Assembly: GCA_944358795.1 (NCBI GenBank)
Contig: CALVRW010000042.1
Coordinates: 1 to 52,746 of the forward strand
Direction: 5' to 3'
From: an uncultured Bacilli bacterium
Lineage (GTDB): Bacteria; Bacillota_I; Bacilli_A; RF39; UBA660
DNA length: 52,746 nucleotides
Part shown: positions 43,518 to 48,105 of the stretch, piece by piece
Numbering within the stretch: position 1 is the stretch's first letter
Layout of the letters: every line of letters begins with the position of its first letter
Position numbers and translations under genes: made by a program
Notes under the pieces: generated by a model
Database searches by the model: none
Told to the model about the DNA's origin: nothing
What the model saw: the letters and a program-made list of their open reading frames with translations, nothing else

Positions 43518-44567
43518 CTAAGAAGATGGCAATTTATTTTTCCATAAACAAGATTCATACATCTTTTTTTGATAATGATAACTATTGCAATGATTAGAAT
43601 GTGCAACCCAAGAATTCCAACTAGCAATAGCATATGTTTCATCTAAATTACCACATAAATAATGTTGATTCCATTTTTTAATCTTTTTTCTTATTTTCTT
43701 TTTACTTCTCTGTTTTAATAAACGATGTGTTTCAAAAATTCGATAACCACAAAAAGTAACACCAAAATGATTTGGCATATACCTACTTTTATGATTTAAT
43801 TCCAACTTTAAATTTTTTTCAATATAACTTTTTACTACTAATAATACTTGTTTTGCTTCTTCTTTTCCTGGTACAAGAATAATAAAATCATCCATATATC
43901 GAATGTAATATTTTAAATGTAATTGCTCTTTTACATAATGATCCAATTCATTTAATAAGATATTTGCAAAAAATTGACTAGTATAATTTCCAATTGGAAT
44001 TCCTAATTCCATATCATCATCAAAAATCAAATGCCACGTAAAGTCTAGCAATTTCTTATCTGCTATATGCTTTTTCATAATAAGAAATAATGTTTCTTTA
44101 TGAATATTATAAAAAAACTTTTTAATATCACACTTTATAATATAATAACTACCATACTCACGTTTCATAATTCTCATATAATACTGTAGTTTTTCTACTG
44201 CTTTATGTGTTCCTCTATTCTCTAGACAAGCATAAGAATCAATGATAAATTTTGGTTCAATATAAGGTTTAATGAATTCATGCACATACCATTGATGTAC
44301 AACCCTATCTCGATACGGTAATGCTCTAATTAATCTCTCCTTTGGCTCATAGATTGTAAAATTATGATACTTTCCGGCATGATATGTACCTTTTTTTATT
44401 TGACTTACTAAATTAGATAAATTATTTTCTAAATCTAGCTCAAACTTCATAACCGTCACTTTACTTGCCTTTTGTTGTTTTGCCCGATTATGTGCTTCCC
44501 ACATTTTAATTACTGTAAGGCGCTTCATAAATTCATTCTTTATTGTTTTCGACAAGCCTTCATCCAT
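43518..44567 (-). CDS. DGR reverse transcriptase
   Basis: EPKERLI, YRDRVVH, KCDIKKFF, IPIGNYTSQ, YIRYMDD, FCGY; start may be TTG at 44555; overlaps avd. Confidence 0.96.
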   Translation of the reverse strand: MDEGLSKTIKNEFMKRLTVIKMWEAHNRAKQQKASKVTVMKFELDLENNLSNLVSQIKKGTYHAGKYHNFTIYEPKERLIRALPYRDRVVHQWYVHEFIKPYIEPKFIIDSYACLENRGTHKAVEKLQYYMRIMKREYGSYYIIKCDIKKFFYNIHKETLFLIMKKHIADKKLLDFTWHLIFDDDMELGIPIGNYTSQFFANILLNELDHYVKEQLHLKYYIRYMDDFIILVPGKEEAKQVLLVVKSYIEKNLKLELNHKSRYMPNHFGVTFCGYRIFETHRLLKQRSKKKIRKKIKKWNQHYLCGNLDETYAIASWNSWVAHSNHCNSYHYQKKMYESCLWKNKLPSS

Positions 44568-44896
44568 CCTCCCATTAAGTTAGATATATTCGTAATCTTT
44601 TTACTCCACGCCGCATAATTTTTACCACTAATATATTTATTTTTATAAGAAATACGAACGAATACTTTTAAAACTTTTAATTTCACATCTAATTCATTTA
44701 AATATTTTAATTTAGATATCCGATCAATTGATTTATAGCAATATAAAATACATTCTAACCCTTCATTCGTTTTTAATTTAATATCCGTTACCAATGCATA
44801 ACGTTCTACTTTAGGAAACTTTTTTAATATCATATTTTCATAATACATTAATTCTACATACTGCTTATAAATCATTAACGTTTCTACTTCATTCAT
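44540..44896 (-). CDS. avd: DGR accessory variability determinant (Avd, four-helix bundle)
   Basis: FPKVERYAL, L.ELDVKL..LK.FVR, IS..MGGW; immediately upstream of the RT. Confidence 0.92.
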   Translation of the reverse strand: MNEVETLMIYKQYVELMYYENMILKKFPKVERYALVTDIKLKTNEGLECILYCYKSIDRISKLKYLNELDVKLKVLKVFVRISYKNKYISGKNYAAWSKKITNISNLMGGWMKACRKQ

Positions 44897-45260
44897 TTAT
44901 TACTTTCTCCTTTAATTCATTTAATATTTCTAACGCCTTTAATGGTGTCAAAGAATTAATATCTAACTGTCGCAAATACTCCATGATTTCAAGACTAAAT
45001 TCTTTTCTTTCTTCATTTCCAATTATTTCATACTCACAATCGAGATTATCTAACATCATTTTATATTTTTCATAACTATTAATAGGAAACCCACATTTAT
45101 TAATCTGATCATTTAACTTGGTTAGTTTTAAACCTAATTTCCGACCATATTGTTCTGCATCATCCGCAAGTAATAAATAAAATATACCACTTTTCAACAC
45201 ATATATTTTACTAAAATCTTTTTGTTTTAATTCACAATACTTATTATATAACTTACTCAT
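44889..45260 (-). CDS. Mini-MutS-like DGR accessory protein (MutS domain I plus MutS-like C-terminal motif)
   Basis: Y.ELK...KSGIFY....DDA...LGLKLT...CGFP (domain I); LDINSLTPLKALEILNELK (MutS C-terminus-like); overlaps the avd start. Confidence 0.85.
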   Translation of the reverse strand: MSKLYNKYCELKQKDFSKIYVLKSGIFYLLLADDAEQYGRKLGLKLTKLNDQINKCGFPINSYEKYKMMLDNLDCEYEIIGNEERKEFSLEIMEYLRQLDINSLTPLKALEILNELKEKVINE

Positions 45261-45317: not shown

Positions 45318-45481
45318 CATATTCCATATAATTTCATGTTCATCATTTTACTACTAACAAAATTATACTATTCATTTTTTTATTCACATTGTGAAAAGGA
45401 ATCAATCATCTAAGATAATCATTATGATTAAGTGCCTTGACTTAAACTTTAAACGAATCAATTTGATTTTATACCATAGTC

Positions 45482-45617
45482 TGCTGACCACGACACCACG
45501 AGCCGAGATGTTACTGTTCCCGTTACCGTTGTTGTTGTTCGAGTTGAACACACCTGCGTTCGAATCATTGTTGTAGTTACCACCGCGGTTCACCCAAGGG
45601 TTGGATGAGTTAGGCAT
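45482..45617 (-). repeat. DGR template repeat (TR), 136 bp
   Basis: Aligns ungapped to VR at a +280 offset; 39 adenines and 15 AAY codons on the minus strand. Confidence 0.97.
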
Positions 45618-45644
45618 CATGACTTGATTTAGATTAATCCCTGT

Positions 45645-45679
45645 ATTCTGCAAACCGTAAAAGAGGCGGTTTGCAGAAT
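45645..45679. other. Perfect 13-bp hairpin 5' of TR
   Basis: ATTCTGCAAACCG-9 nt-CGGTTTGCAGAAT. Confidence 0.85.
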
Positions 45680-45743: not shown

Positions 45744-45759
45744 TAGTCGCTAGCGACTA
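45744..45759. other. Palindrome 3' of VR/IMH (putative retrohoming hairpin/cruciform)
   Basis: Perfect 16-bp palindrome TAGTCGCTAGCGACTA including the target stop codon; absent after TR. Confidence 0.8.
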
Positions 45760-47295
45760 GTTGCTGACCACGACACCACGAGCCGAGATGTCACTGTACC
45801 CGTCACCGTTGCCGTTGTTCGAGTAGAACACACCTGCGTCCGAATCAGAGCTGCAGCCACCACCGCGGACCACCCAAGGGTTGGATGAGTTAGGCATATA
45901 TCCATAGTCTTCATACCAATGTTTTGTTGATGATACATAAACCTCTTTCATCGCATCCCCTAATTTACTAATACTATGATTATTATTACTTGTATTATAA
46001 TCATATTGGTCATAATATTTACTATCTGGGGCACTCGTAAATCCACTACTTGCTGTGTTAAAACTTCCATCTTGTTTTGCACTACTAGCCATTACATATT
46101 CATAAGCTCCTCCACTCATATCAAAGATTCCAGTAATGTTCCCTGTCGTACTTTGGTTATATGTTCCATTCCCTTTACTTCCGTAGGCATTTTTACAAGT
46201 GCTTGTACTACTTTCACTAGCGTTATCTGCTCCACATCCTGTTGTATAACTACTATTGTTGTTCAGTATAACTTCTCCATTTTTTCCATATTTACTATGT
46301 GTTAGGTATGCCACTGCTCCCCATTCACTATTTTTCATCATATGACTATCATAACTACTTAGTCCATAATTACTTCCCATACTTTTTATCGTATTAAAGA
46401 AACTACTAATATTTAAACTTCTCAAGGAAGAAACATTTGGTTTGATGGTTGGACTTGACGCTGTTCCCGTCATCTCAAATTTTCCAACCCATAGTCCTGA
46501 TAATTCTGTACTCCCAAAGGTAAATGCTGGATGCGTTAGCCATTCTCCATTTTTTGTACCAGTACTTTTTGGTGTACTCTTACTTTCAAATTCGATTTTG
46601 ATTTCTTGTGGTTGAGATTCATTTCCTTCCACATTCCATAATTGATATTTATATCTTGGTATCCATACATAATAAGCTAAGATATCTGATTCAGTAATTG
46701 TTGTTCCATCACTTGCACTTTTATACTTATCTCTTGAATCATTTGTTACTGCTACAGCATTGGCCCATTTCTTTTGATCGTAATCATACCAATCACCATT
46801 AACATCTGCTTTTACGGTTTTTCCATTACTATCAAATGTTACTGGGATCATTCCATCTTGGATTACTGGGGATCCATCATTACTACTTCCTCCTCCAGTA
46901 ACACATTCTGCTTCTGTTTTCTTACTTTCATCAATGGTCACTTCTTCAGTATCATAATCTTTTACCACACAATATCCATTAATCCAAGCACGAAGTTGTG
47001 TTTTCATTTCTTTATCGATATCAAGTGTAAATTTGGTTGGTTTCGTTCCTTTCATTGGTAGGTTACTACCTTCATCATAATGAAATGGTGGAGTAATATT
47101 GTCTAGTCCAGAAGTTGCTGCTTCCAACTCTCCAGCTTTTATGACACTATAGCCTGCATCTCTTGCAGCACTCTTTTTCGCATCATTTATTACATTCATA
47201 ATTAGTGGAGTAGCGATTAGGGCGATAACTGCTAATATAACGATAACCGCAAGTAACTCTATTAACGTAAATCCTTGATATGTTTTTTCCTTCAT
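45757..47295 (-). CDS. DGR target: type IV prepilin-like protein with C-terminal CLec/FGE-like variable domain
   Basis: QG|FTLIELLAVIVILAVIA class III signal; TGIFDMSGGAYEYV and WVVRGG CLec-type motifs; VR at the 3' end; ATG 47295 follows AAGGAG. Confidence 0.93.
   Translation of the reverse strand: MKEKTYQGFTLIELLAVIVILAVIALIATPLIMNVINDAKKSAARDAGYSVIKAGELEAATSGLDNITPPFHYDEGSNLPMKGTKPTKFTLDIDKEMKTQLRAWINGYCVVKDYDTEEVTIDESKKTEAECVTGGGSSNDGSPVIQDGMIPVTFDSNGKTVKADVNGDWYDYDQKKWANAVAVTNDSRDKYKSASDGTTITESDILAYYVWIPRYKYQLWNVEGNESQPQEIKIEFESKSTPKSTGTKNGEWLTHPAFTFGSTELSGLWVGKFEMTGTASSPTIKPNVSSLRSLNISSFFNTIKSMGSNYGLSSYDSHMMKNSEWGAVAYLTHSKYGKNGEVILNNNSSYTTGCGADNASESSTSTCKNAYGSKGNGTYNQSTTGNITGIFDMSGGAYEYVMASSAKQDGSFNTASSGFTSAPDSKYYDQYDYNTSNNNHSISKLGDAMKEVYVSSTKHWYEDYGYMPNSSNPWVVRGGGCSSDSDAGVFYSNNGNGDGYSDISARGVVVSN
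45762..45897 (-). repeat. DGR variable repeat (VR), 136 bp
   Basis: 15 mismatches to TR, all at TR adenines (10 A>G, 4 A>T, 1 A>C). Confidence 0.97.
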
Positions 47296-47325
47296 TCTTT
47301 TATTCACTCCTTCTATTCTATTAGT

Positions 47326-47511: not shown

Positions 47512-48105
47512 TCAACATTGTTTTTCTTTTTTCGAATTTATTTTTTGGTAAGCATAGTATAGGCAAAGTGGGTTTCCCTCTTTTGCTACTTGTATTCTAT
47601 TCTTTTTTACATGCATATACATATCGCATCTTTTATTCTGTTTATAATTAGCTTCTCTTAAAGAATCCATTAAAATATTTTCATTATCTGTTGGATAATA
47701 TAACTCAACTTCATTTCCAAGTATAAGTTGTTCTAATAATCTACTTTTGAATTGTTTTGAAAAATAGTCCATTGTTTCAATCGAGTTAATATATTCATTT
47801 GTATAATTACCACAACTAAATATTAATAAAATTGATTTCCATAATTTTAAATCTTGCAAAGTAGGATTTACTAATTCATTTCTCCACCAATCGCTAGCAA
47901 TTTGTATCATTTGGTTTAACTGCACCTTATTATCATACATTTGATAGCAATAAAGTAATTGTTCTAATTCTAAAAGATCTTCTTCCGTATATTCCTCTTT
48001 TATCTTATGACATAATCCCATCTGTTCTAAATACTCATTTAATGAAATTTCTCCCTCATTCTTTATTTGATAACCATTCTTTACATATTGTTCTTTAGAA
48101 TTCAT
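47512..48105 (-). CDS. Hypothetical protein
   Basis: 197-aa ORF with AAGGAGG RBS directly after spmB. Confidence 0.7.
   Translation of the reverse strand: MNSKEQYVKNGYQIKNEGEISLNEYLEQMGLCHKIKEEYTEEDLLELEQLLYCYQMYDNKVQLNQMIQIASDWWRNELVNPTLQDLKLWKSILLIFSCGNYTNEYINSIETMDYFSKQFKSRLLEQLILGNEVELYYPTDNENILMDSLREANYKQNKRCDMYMHVKKNRIQVAKEGNPLCLYYAYQKINSKKEKQC

What the first reader, a model, noticed from the sequence alone, without database searches (positions are those of the whole stretch)
44889..45260. Mini-MutS: mismatch-binding domain joined directly to a MutS-like C-terminal oligomerisation tail, coupled to avd-RT
Seen: a 123-aa protein with MutS domain I motifs. The mismatch-stacking Phe is kept but the Glu of Phe-X-Glu is replaced (GIFYL versus GDFYE). 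It ends in LDINSLTPLKALEILNELK, resembling the extreme C-terminus of full-length MutS, and has no clamp or ATPase domain. MutS-like accessory genes have been noted in some DGRs, but I know of no established function. Inference: it could shield the mismatch-rich cDNA:VR heteroduplex from repair or co-assemble with host MutS as an inhibitor, so that mutations become fixed.
Basis: partly seen in the sequence, partly recalled or inferred. Interest (0 to 1): 0.82.

Follow-up and report, generated by a model that had tools for sequence, protein, structure and literature searches.

The report
MutS-like DGR helper with MutS tail
This small gene is a member of the already catalogued but never functionally tested "MutS-like" helper family of diversity-generating retroelements, and its tail does derive from the self-association end of the repair protein MutS.

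Summary
Window 44889-45260 (-) encodes a 123-aa protein. Residues 1-82 are a MutS domain I (Pfam 1e-09; model rmsd 1.6 A to solved MutS). The stacking Phe is invariant in 73 of 73 homologues and the Glu of Phe-X-Glu is never present (0 of 73). Residues 83-123 form a helix-loop-helix that is homologous to the extreme C-terminus of MutS. A tail-only profile picks out the host MutS alone among 14,291 ORFs of this genome (E 6e-04). It lands on the last residues of MutS in 30 of 30 related genomes.

The gene overlaps avd by 8 nt, in the order target/VR - TR - msl - avd - RT. All 15 TR/VR differences lie at TR adenines, so this is a bona fide DGR.

The family itself is not new. It is the MSL/Msl accessory class (Wu et al. 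2018), and this scan has noted it in at least 26 other genomes.

Function remains untested. My best inference is a self-associating, ATPase-less mismatch binder that keeps host MutS-MutL from reverting the cDNA:VR heteroduplex. I found no sign of co-evolution with host MutS.

The parts
44889..45260 (-). msl: 123-aa MutS-like DGR accessory protein (stop codon 44889-44891)
   Evidence: ORF list; Pfam MutS_I E 1e-09; 73 homologues, all carrying PF01624
45015..45260 (-). residues 1-82, MutS domain I fold. F27 (45180-45182) is the stacking Phe. L29 (45174-45176) replaces the Glu of Phe-X-Glu.
   Evidence: AF2 model and Foldseek. F is present in 73 of 73; position 29 is I58 V7 L5 N2 T1, Glu 0 of 73.
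44892..45014 (-). residues 83-123, helix-loop-helix tail (H83-98, loop with L-D-I-N-S-L-T-P, H106-122), homologous to the MutS C-terminal domain
   Evidence: hhalign 85-122 to 829-866 of 870, E 2.3e-05. Secondary structure.
44540..44896 (-). avd, 118 aa; its start overlaps the msl stop by 8 nt
   Evidence: Pfam bAvd 63.1 bits, E 3.9e-17. NCBIfam DivGenRetAVD 65.6 bits, below its cut-off of 80.
43518..44567 (-). DGR reverse transcriptase, 349 aa; overlaps avd by 28 nt
   Evidence: Pfam RVT_1 E 8.7e-19
45482..45617 (-). template repeat (TR), 136 nt, 39 adenines
   Evidence: Repeat D1; alignment; counts
45762..45897 (-). variable repeat (VR) at the 3' end of the target gene
   Evidence: There are 15 differences from the TR. 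All 15 are at TR adenines, and all fall in codon positions 1 or 2.
45757..47307 (-). target gene, 516 aa, with a prepilin-type N-terminal methylation motif and the VR at its C-terminus
   Evidence: Pfam N_methyl E 4e-07; TIGR02532

Best explanation
Shown: the gene encodes an Msl/MSL accessory protein of a chromosomal DGR. It is a MutS cut down to its two ends. One end is the mismatch-binding domain I, with the stacking Phe kept and the repair-authorising Glu replaced by a hydrophobic residue. The other end, joined by a short flexible linker, is the C-terminal helix-loop-helix that in E. coli MutS stabilises dimers and allows tetramers. It is made from the same tightly overlapping operon as Avd and the RT, in a host that has intact MutS and MutL.

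Inferred: Msl self-associates through the tail, so two or more domain I modules are tethered together. This assembly binds the cDNA:VR heteroduplex, which here would carry up to 39 closely spaced A-derived mismatches. It has no ATPase, clamp or MutL-activating parts, so it occupies the mismatches without starting repair and keeps host MutS-MutL from restoring the parental VR. Tethered domains would favour clustered mismatches over single replication errors, which would limit any genome-wide mutator cost.
For: Tail homology to the MutS C-terminus:
- It is the only non-self hit among 14,291 ORFs of this genome (E 6.2e-04).
- The best match ends within 7 residues of the C-terminus in 30 of 30 MutS proteins (12.4-27.5 bits), against 2.6 bits at most for reversed controls.
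- hhalign gives E 2.3e-05 and BLASTP 44% identity.

The MutS residues 823-853 form a conserved helix-loop-helix. The C-terminal domain stabilises dimers and allows tetramers (PMC1636413 passages; PMC3783165 passages).

The tail belongs to the family:
- 28 of 30 related loci carry it.
- 110 of the 150 best library representatives carry it.
- It is under purifying selection in the one informative close pair: pN 0.036 against pS 0.626, with whole-gene dN/dS 0.067.

E. coli MutS E38A, E38T and E38Q were crystallised on a G.T mismatch (entry titles), so losing the Glu need not abolish mismatch binding.

The host has MutS (852 aa) and MutL. All 30 of 30 Msl-bearing relatives examined have full-length MutS.

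Deleting host mutS raises retrohoming 5- to 10-fold in a Bacteroides DGR, in an all-or-nothing pattern (bioRxiv 10.1101/2024.11.15.621889 passages). Engineered DGRs are run with mutS deleted or with dominant-negative MutL.

Linkage: an RT lies within about 3 kb in 24 of 29 related loci, and 18 of these have the same msl-avd-RT order.
Against: No experiment on any Msl was found.

Whether an isolated domain I binds DNA without the clamp domain is unknown to me.

This Msl is acidic overall (pI 5.4), although its domain I has pI 8.4.

The tail is not universal:
- Two representatives (P0204, P0215) fuse domain I to Avd and lack the tail.
- The second mini-MutS of this same genome, and its 19-member family, show no detectable MutS-type tail.
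So the tail cannot be essential to whatever all Msl proteins do.

The two constitutively active Bacteroides DGRs lack Msl, so Msl is not required for activity in an MMR-proficient host.

The residues whose mutation breaks E. coli tetramers are only partly kept. The D835 equivalent is N in 47 of 73. The P839 equivalent is P in 37 of 73.
Confidence: 0.42

Rival explanations
1. Msl uses its MutS-derived tail to join the host MutS oligomer. It either acts as a dominant-negative cap that blocks MutS tetramers or function, or it recruits host MutS to the DGR intermediate.
For: The tail core is about 39% identical to the host-order MutS tails, and 44% to its own host's. That MutS region mediates dimer and tetramer formation, and tetramer-deficient E. 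coli MutS has 5- to 10-fold higher mutation frequencies. Host MutS is present in 30 of 30 Msl-bearing genomes.
Against: Msl tails are no closer to their own host's MutS tail than to those of other hosts. Mean BLOSUM score is 46.9 against 46.1, permutation p 0.27, over 27 genomes. Shared ancestry would have inflated a signal, not hidden one.

Msl forms without the tail exist.

In full-length E. coli MutS the two C-terminal domains of a dimer are already paired with each other.

A global MutS poison would make the host a mutator.
Confidence: 0.2
2. Msl is a subunit or client of the Avd-RT ribonucleoprotein. It acts at cDNA synthesis, priming or hand-off to the target, for example by gripping the mispaired RNA:cDNA or the cDNA:target junction, and does not act on mismatch repair.
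For: The msl stop and avd start overlap by 8 nt. The same msl-avd-RT order is found in 18 of 29 related loci. Two of the 150 best representatives are single-chain MutS_I + bAvd proteins, and an earlier scan note reports a third fusion (e1-1551680). Wu et al. report three DGR RTs with a weak MutS_I motif in their C-terminal extension.
Against: The only known activity of domain I is mismatch recognition in duplex DNA. Many DGRs, including the Bordetella phage prototype, work without Msl: MSL is in 16 of 372 DGRs in Wu et al.. The fusions come from metagenome gene calls that I could not check at DNA level.
Confidence: 0.2
3. The ORF is a decaying MutS fragment with no function of its own.
For: It consists only of the two ends of MutS. 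One related copy sits without any RT on an 11.7-kb contig, and one sits beside a target homologue with no RT within 8 kb.
Against: dN/dS is 0.067 in the one informative close pair. Eleven residues are invariant across 63 aligned homologues. The 1.84-billion-protein library holds 99 clusters at E<=1e-30 and 506 at E<=1e-10. Synteny and translational coupling are conserved.
Confidence: 0.02

Closest known systems
MSL / Msl (MutS-like) accessory proteins of DGRs: 'Architecture D' of Wu et al., Nucleic Acids Res 2018 (PMC5758913); Msl of the Bacteroides Bfr, Bth and Bun DGRs (bioRxiv 10.1101/2024.11.15.621889)
   Same: A small protein (the published range is 112-283 aa) with MutS domain I homology, encoded inside a DGR cassette together with avd and the RT. 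Function is untested (passages).
   Different: [quoted passage not shown] They do not mention the MutS C-terminal helix-loop-helix or the systematic loss of the Glu. I could not compare sequences with the published set because the supplements are closed, and tblastn against the phage and plasmid collections found nothing.
Bacterial MutS (MutS1, TIGR01070), including this host's own 852-aa MutS
   Same: Shares the domain I fold with the stacking Phe, and the extreme C-terminal helix-loop-helix, in the same order.
   Different: Lacks about 730 residues: the connector, core/lever, clamp and ATPase domains and the beta-clamp motif region. The Glu of Phe-X-Glu is replaced by I, L or V. It therefore cannot form a sliding clamp or activate MutL.
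E. coli MutS C-terminal domain (residues 801-853; PMC1636413, PMC3783165; PDB 3ZLJ, 6I5F)
   Same: Helix-loop-helix with the L-D-x-x-S-L-T-P ... A-L ... L-K pattern. Msl 92-118 aligns to E. coli 825-851.
   Different: The match to the E. coli sequence is weak on its own (4.3-6.4 bits); the significant matches are to MutS of the host's own order. The D835 equivalent is N in this Msl. Oligomeric state is unknown.
Second mini-MutS type in the same genome (contig 3: msl2-avd2-RT2) and its 19-member family
   Same: A MutS_I domain with Phe kept and Glu lost, placed directly upstream of an Avd-like gene and a DGR-type RT.
   Different: It is 140 aa, and its conserved C-terminal region shows no detectable similarity to the MutS tail.
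Dominant-negative MutL (E32K) or mutS deletion used to boost engineered DGRs in E. coli (bioRxiv 10.64898/2026.07.21.739853; PMC12875486)
   Same: This is a functional analogy only: suppressing MMR in order to fix DGR-made substitutions.
   Different: These are laboratory devices that act on the whole cell's MMR. Msl is natural, is built from MutS parts, and has no demonstrated activity.

Membership tests
MSL/Msl DGR accessory proteins (Wu et al. 2018) | Small protein, 112-283 aa | tested here: met
   123 aa; the range is as stated in PMC5758913
MSL/Msl DGR accessory proteins (Wu et al. 2018) | Homology to MutS (mismatch-recognition domain I) | tested here: met
   Pfam MutS_I 39 bits against cut-off 20.6; family profile against PDB MutS E 4.2e-09; fold match rmsd 1.6 A
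MSL/Msl DGR accessory proteins (Wu et al. 2018) | Encoded inside a DGR cassette (RT plus TR/VR) | tested here: met
   Order is target/VR - TR - msl - avd - RT on one strand. 15 of 15 TR/VR differences lie at TR adenines.
MSL/Msl DGR accessory proteins (Wu et al. 2018) | Accompanied by avd and not by an HRDC gene | tested here: met
   avd lies directly downstream (bAvd E 3.9e-17). None of the six ORFs of the locus that I scanned matches HRDC; only those six were scanned.
MSL/Msl DGR accessory proteins (Wu et al. 2018) | Near-neutral pI (7.2 +/- 1.7); a descriptive feature, not a defining one | tested here: inconclusive
   This protein has pI 5.4. Its 68 homologues of at least 110 aa average 8.3 +/- 1.3.
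MSL/Msl DGR accessory proteins (Wu et al. 2018) | Direct sequence similarity to a named member of the published set | not testable with these tools
   Supplementary tables are closed. There was no tblastn match in the phage or plasmid collections.
MutS (MutS1 mismatch repair ATPase) | Phe-X-Glu mismatch-recognition motif | tested here: not met
   Phe is kept, but Glu is replaced by Leu here and is absent in 73 of 73 homologues
MutS (MutS1 mismatch repair ATPase) | Connector, core, clamp and ABC ATPase domains (II-V) | tested here: not met
   123 aa; only MutS_I matches; TIGR01070 scores 34.6 bits against cut-off 641.7
MutS (MutS1 mismatch repair ATPase) | C-terminal helix-loop-helix oligomerisation domain | tested here: met
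   Sequence homology only; oligomerisation itself was not shown.
Diversity-generating retroelement | RT, a template and variable repeat pair differing only at template adenines, and a target gene with a C-terminal VR | tested here: met
   RVT_1 E 8.7e-19; 136-nt repeats, 15 of 15 differences at TR adenines, all in codon positions 1 and 2

The most novel reading that the evidence does not exclude
Msl is a natural anti-mismatch-repair factor assembled from the two ends of MutS. The C-terminal helix-loop-helix either multimerises domain I into a binder specific for clustered mismatches, or plugs it into the host MutS oligomer. The result is that MMR is switched off locally on the DGR heteroduplex. 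This would explain how DGRs fix dense substitutions in MMR-proficient cells. It would also give a compact, portable MMR-evasion module for DGR- or retron-based editing.
Probability: 0.3. Interest if true: 0.72.

Novelty: new member of a known kind. Interest (0 to 1): 0.4.

Why it matters
DGRs write many clustered mismatches into a target gene, and published work shows that host MutS reverts most of these events. A retroelement-encoded protein made of the MutS mismatch grip plus the MutS self-association module, without the motor, is the obvious candidate for a built-in countermeasure.

The tail homology turns a vague 'MutS-like' label into specific experiments:
- measuring the oligomeric state;
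- testing tail-deletion mutants;
- testing binding to clustered mismatches;
- testing epistasis with mutS.

If the anti-MMR role is confirmed, it would also be a small natural part for improving DGR- and retron-based mutagenesis tools, which now rely on mutS deletion or dominant-negative MutL. As it stands, the gene is one more member of a family described in 2018.

Tried and rejected
1. Complex prediction with two copies of Msl (alignment A2) gave the verdict 'no answer': median score 0.33 against a mark of 0.42. It counts neither for nor against self-association.

I used the genome search over 401 genomes of the same order instead.

3. tblastn of Msl against the phage and plasmid collections found no match at E<=1e-3, so no annotated record could be compared.

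4. The co-variation test of Msl tails against their own hosts' MutS tails gave no signal (p 0.27).

5. Foldseek matched only domain I. The 40-residue tail is too short to be matched to the solved MutS C-terminal domain that way.

6. dN/dS was informative for only one pair (L015 and L017). My pattern-based extraction recovered 18 of 30 coding sequences, and the other three pairs above 55% identity were near synonymous saturation.

7. N-terminal extensions seen in nine library representatives: only one (P0083) has a recognisable Pfam domain, HTH_26. The other eight had none and may be over-long gene calls.

8. I considered that the tail match might come from the lysine/glutamate/isoleucine-rich composition of a 28.5% G+C genome. 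I rejected this because the same-genome ORF background and the reversed-sequence control both stay far below the MutS scores.

9. A look-up of earlier scan notes near this place found nothing.

Full report
**What is there**

Window 44889-45260 on the - strand holds an ATG-started ORF of 123 aa. Its stop overlaps by 8 nt the start of a 118-aa Avd gene at 44540-44896 (Pfam bAvd E 3.9e-17). That gene in turn overlaps by 28 nt a 349-aa reverse transcriptase at 43518-44567 (RVT_1 E 8.7e-19).

Upstream on the same strand lie a 136-nt template repeat (45482-45617) and its variable copy (45762-45897). The variable copy sits at the 3' end of a 516-aa gene with a prepilin-type N-terminal methylation motif. 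The two repeats differ at 15 positions. All 15 are adenines in the template, and all fall in codon positions 1 or 2. This is a complete DGR in the order target/VR - TR - msl - avd - RT.

**Checking the observation**

*Domain I.* The protein passes Pfam MutS_I (39 bits against a cut-off of 20.6, residues 5-88). A profile of 63 homologues finds solved MutS structures at E 4.2e-09. An AlphaFold2 model built on that alignment has mean pLDDT 91.9. Its residues 1 to about 83 superpose on MutS/MSH domain I: 48 Foldseek matches at E<=1e-3, all MutS or MSH, the best with rmsd 1.6 A over 83 columns.

*Motif.* Residues 25-29 are G-I-F-Y-L, against G-D-F-Y-E in the host's own MutS. The alignments put F27 on E. 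coli F36 and L29 on E38. In 73 homologues the Phe is invariant and the Glu position is I58 V7 L5 N2 T1. Among the 150 best library representatives, none of the 145 with a recognisable motif has Glu.

*Missing domains.* No clamp or ATPase is present. TIGR01070 scores 34.6 bits against a cut-off of 641.7.

**The tail**

The model ends in two helices, 83-98 and 106-122, joined by the loop L-D-I-N-S-L-T-P.

Against E. coli MutS the resemblance is collinear but weak by itself: Msl 92-118 aligns to 825-851 of 853 at 4.3-6.4 bits. Against MutS of the host's own lineage it is significant.
- I built a 39-position profile from the tail columns only and searched all 14,291 six-frame ORFs of at least 30 aa in this 1.17-Mb genome, with HMMER's filters off. 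After the protein itself, the only hit is host MutS residues 824-849 of 852 (19.1 bits, E 6.2e-04); the next ORF has E 0.3.
- In 30 of 30 MutS proteins (this genome plus 29 Msl-bearing relatives), the best match of the tail profile ends within 7 residues of the C-terminus. Scores are 12.4-27.5 bits. The reversed sequences reach 2.6 bits at most.
- BLASTP against the host MutS gives two collinear matches: 1-62 to 14-79 (E 7e-06) and 92-118 to 820-846 (12 of 27 identical, E 0.004).
- Profile-profile comparison gives E 1.4e-09 for domain I and E 2.3e-05 for 85-122 against 829-866 of 870.

In E. coli MutS this region (823-853) is the conserved helix-loop-helix of the C-terminal domain. It stabilises the dimer and allows tetramers, and D835R or P839E abolish tetramers (passages of PMC1636413 and PMC3783165). 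In this Msl the D835 equivalent is N102 and the P839 equivalent is P106. Across the family these positions are N in 47 of 73 and P in 37 of 73.

**Is the family real, and is it tied to DGRs?**

*Size of the family.*
- The word-indexed search gave 73 homologues of 73-155 aa, all carrying PF01624.
- The exhaustive search of 1.84 billion representatives gave 5,563 proteins at E<=1e-3, 506 at E<=1e-10 and 99 at E<=1e-30. The best 150 are almost all 90-240 aa long.
- The tail profile hits 110 of those 150, and 108 of the 132 that are 115-260 aa long. Many of the misses are visibly truncated.

*Distribution in related genomes.* In 401 genomes of the window's order, 50 strong short-frame matches (E<=3.3e-24) fall in 46 genomes. 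Most other matches are full-length MutS.

*Linkage, in the 29 non-self loci among the 30 best.*
- 18 have msl-avd-RT exactly as here.
- 3 have an RT directly adjacent in another order.
- 3 more have a DGR-type RT within about 2.5 kb once the flanks were extended.
- 1 lies beside target homologues with no RT within 8 kb.
- 3 are cut by contig ends.
- 1 lies next to spoIVA, with no RT on its 11.7-kb contig.

*Selection.* The one close pair that is not saturated gives dN/dS 0.067, with the tail at pN 0.036 against pS 0.626.

**What is already known**

Wu et al. (Nucleic Acids Res 2018, PMC5758913; passages read) defined MSL, 'MutS-like'. These are 112-283-aa accessory proteins found in 16 of 372 DGRs, always with avd and never with HRDC ('Architecture D'). 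They also noted three RTs with a weak MutS_I motif.

Macadangdang et al. (bioRxiv 10.1101/2024.11.15.621889; passages) name Msl in three Bacteroides DGRs. In a DGR without Msl, they show that deleting host mutS raises VR mutagenesis 5- to 10-fold with an unchanged pattern, which they read as all-or-nothing repair of the heteroduplex.

Two 2026 papers run engineered DGRs with mutS deleted or with dominant-negative MutL. One states that MutS-like homologues had implicated MMR in retrohoming.

Searches for 'Msl' with 'mutagenic retrohoming', and for 'MutS-like' with DGR, Avd and accessory, returned only these papers and one review. No functional test of Msl was among them, and the passages I read make no mention of a MutS C-terminal tail. 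Supplements were closed.

This scan has 27 earlier notes on such genes in at least 26 genomes, all filed as known MSL. None of them mentions the tail.

**How it most likely works**

*Shown.* The protein has a MutS mismatch grip with the Phe kept and the Glu lost, plus a MutS-type self-association module. It has no motor. It is co-expressed with Avd and the RT, in a host with intact MutS (852 aa) and MutL (606 aa, 555.7 bits).

*Inferred.* The tail makes Msl a dimer or higher oligomer. The linker (residues 81-90, pLDDT 72) leaves the domain I modules free to bind neighbouring mismatches in the cDNA:VR heteroduplex. Without an ATPase or a MutL-activating surface, the bound protein blocks host MutS rather than starting repair.

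Solved E. coli MutS E38A, E38T and E38Q complexes with a G.T mismatch exist (entry titles). This fits with my recollection, from no call here, that Glu38 is needed for discrimination and for authorising repair rather than for binding as such.

I put this reading at about 0.42.

**Evidence that cuts against a simple story**
- Msl tails are no more similar to their own host's MutS tail than to other hosts' tails (46.9 against 46.1, permutation p 0.27, 27 genomes). This gives no support to hetero-oligomerisation with MutS.
- Two library representatives (P0204 of 227 aa and P0215 of 237 aa) are single chains of MutS_I plus bAvd and have no helix-loop-helix. This suggests that Msl works next to Avd, which I recall to be a pentamer (from no call here), and that tethering to Avd can replace the tail.
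- This genome's second DGR-like locus (contig 3: mini-MutS of 140 aa, Avd-like gene, RT, then a paralogue of the target's N-terminus) has a mini-MutS whose conserved C-terminal region shows no MutS-tail similarity.
- The two constitutively active Bacteroides DGRs lack Msl.

**Verdict**

The gene is a new member of the known MSL/Msl class. The one addition is that, in this large low-G+C subfamily, the C-terminal third is the MutS oligomerisation helix-loop-helix. That makes Msl 'MutS minus its middle' and suggests concrete experiments. The proposed anti-repair role is reasonable and fits published mutS-deletion data, but nothing here or in the searched literature demonstrates it.

Noticed in passing
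own genome contig 3 (L005:1-2748; L003:1-1701): A second DGR-like operon in the same genome: a 140-aa mini-MutS (MutS_I E 1.8e-07), an Avd-like gene (bAvd 34.3 bits, below the cut-off of 40) and an RT. It is followed by a paralogue of the window's pilin-like target (81.6% identity over residues 1-141), which is cut by the contig end. This mini-MutS type has a different, conserved C-terminal region with no detectable MutS-tail similarity.
   Followed up: partly
library proteins P0204 (227 aa) and P0215 (237 aa): Single-chain fusions of MutS_I and bAvd that lack the helix-loop-helix tail. They are a Rosetta-stone hint that Msl acts together with Avd. They come from metagenome gene calls and were not checked at DNA level.
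   Followed up: partly
library protein P0083 (202 aa): A Cro/C1-type HTH (HTH_26, E 1.5e-10) fused to the N-terminus of a tailed Msl. Eight other representatives with N-terminal extensions had no recognisable extra domain.
   Followed up: partly
library proteins P0158 (2323 aa) and P0179 (1756 aa): Giant proteins that combine DUF285 repeats, four Pfam MutS_I stretches (six by the Msl profile) and an ArdC N-terminal domain. Here the repeated Msl-like domain I occurs outside any DGR context visible to me.
   Followed up: no
L024:1829-2587 and L035:2724-3350 (relatives G028 and G372): A YhcG/DUF1016 PDDEXK nuclease gene sits directly after msl. In one of the two loci it lies between msl with a TR-like stretch and avd-RT. 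In the other, no RT is found within 8 kb.
   Followed up: partly
window 45757-47307 (-): The DGR target is anchored by a type IV prepilin-like N-terminal methylation motif, and no Pfam family matches its variable C-terminal domain. Earlier scan notes describe similar pilin-anchored lectin-like DGR targets in gut bacteria.
   Followed up: no
window 45402-45653 (-): An 83-aa Asn-rich ORF is simply the template repeat read in frame; it has no Pfam match.
   Followed up: yes
window 47512-48105 (-): A 197-aa ORF directly upstream of the target gene has no Pfam match.
   Followed up: no
L025:1972-2370 and L026:1016-1414 (relatives G254 and G383): A 133-aa ORF with no Pfam match lies just upstream of msl. 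In G383 it sits between a type-2 msl-avd-RT cluster and a type-1 msl, so both Msl types occur within 4.5 kb.
   Followed up: partly
relatives G247, G331, G169, G312, G222 (table): Some msl matches are flagged with one in-frame TGA or TAG. I did not check whether this is the profile running past the overlapping stop into avd or a real break.
   Followed up: no
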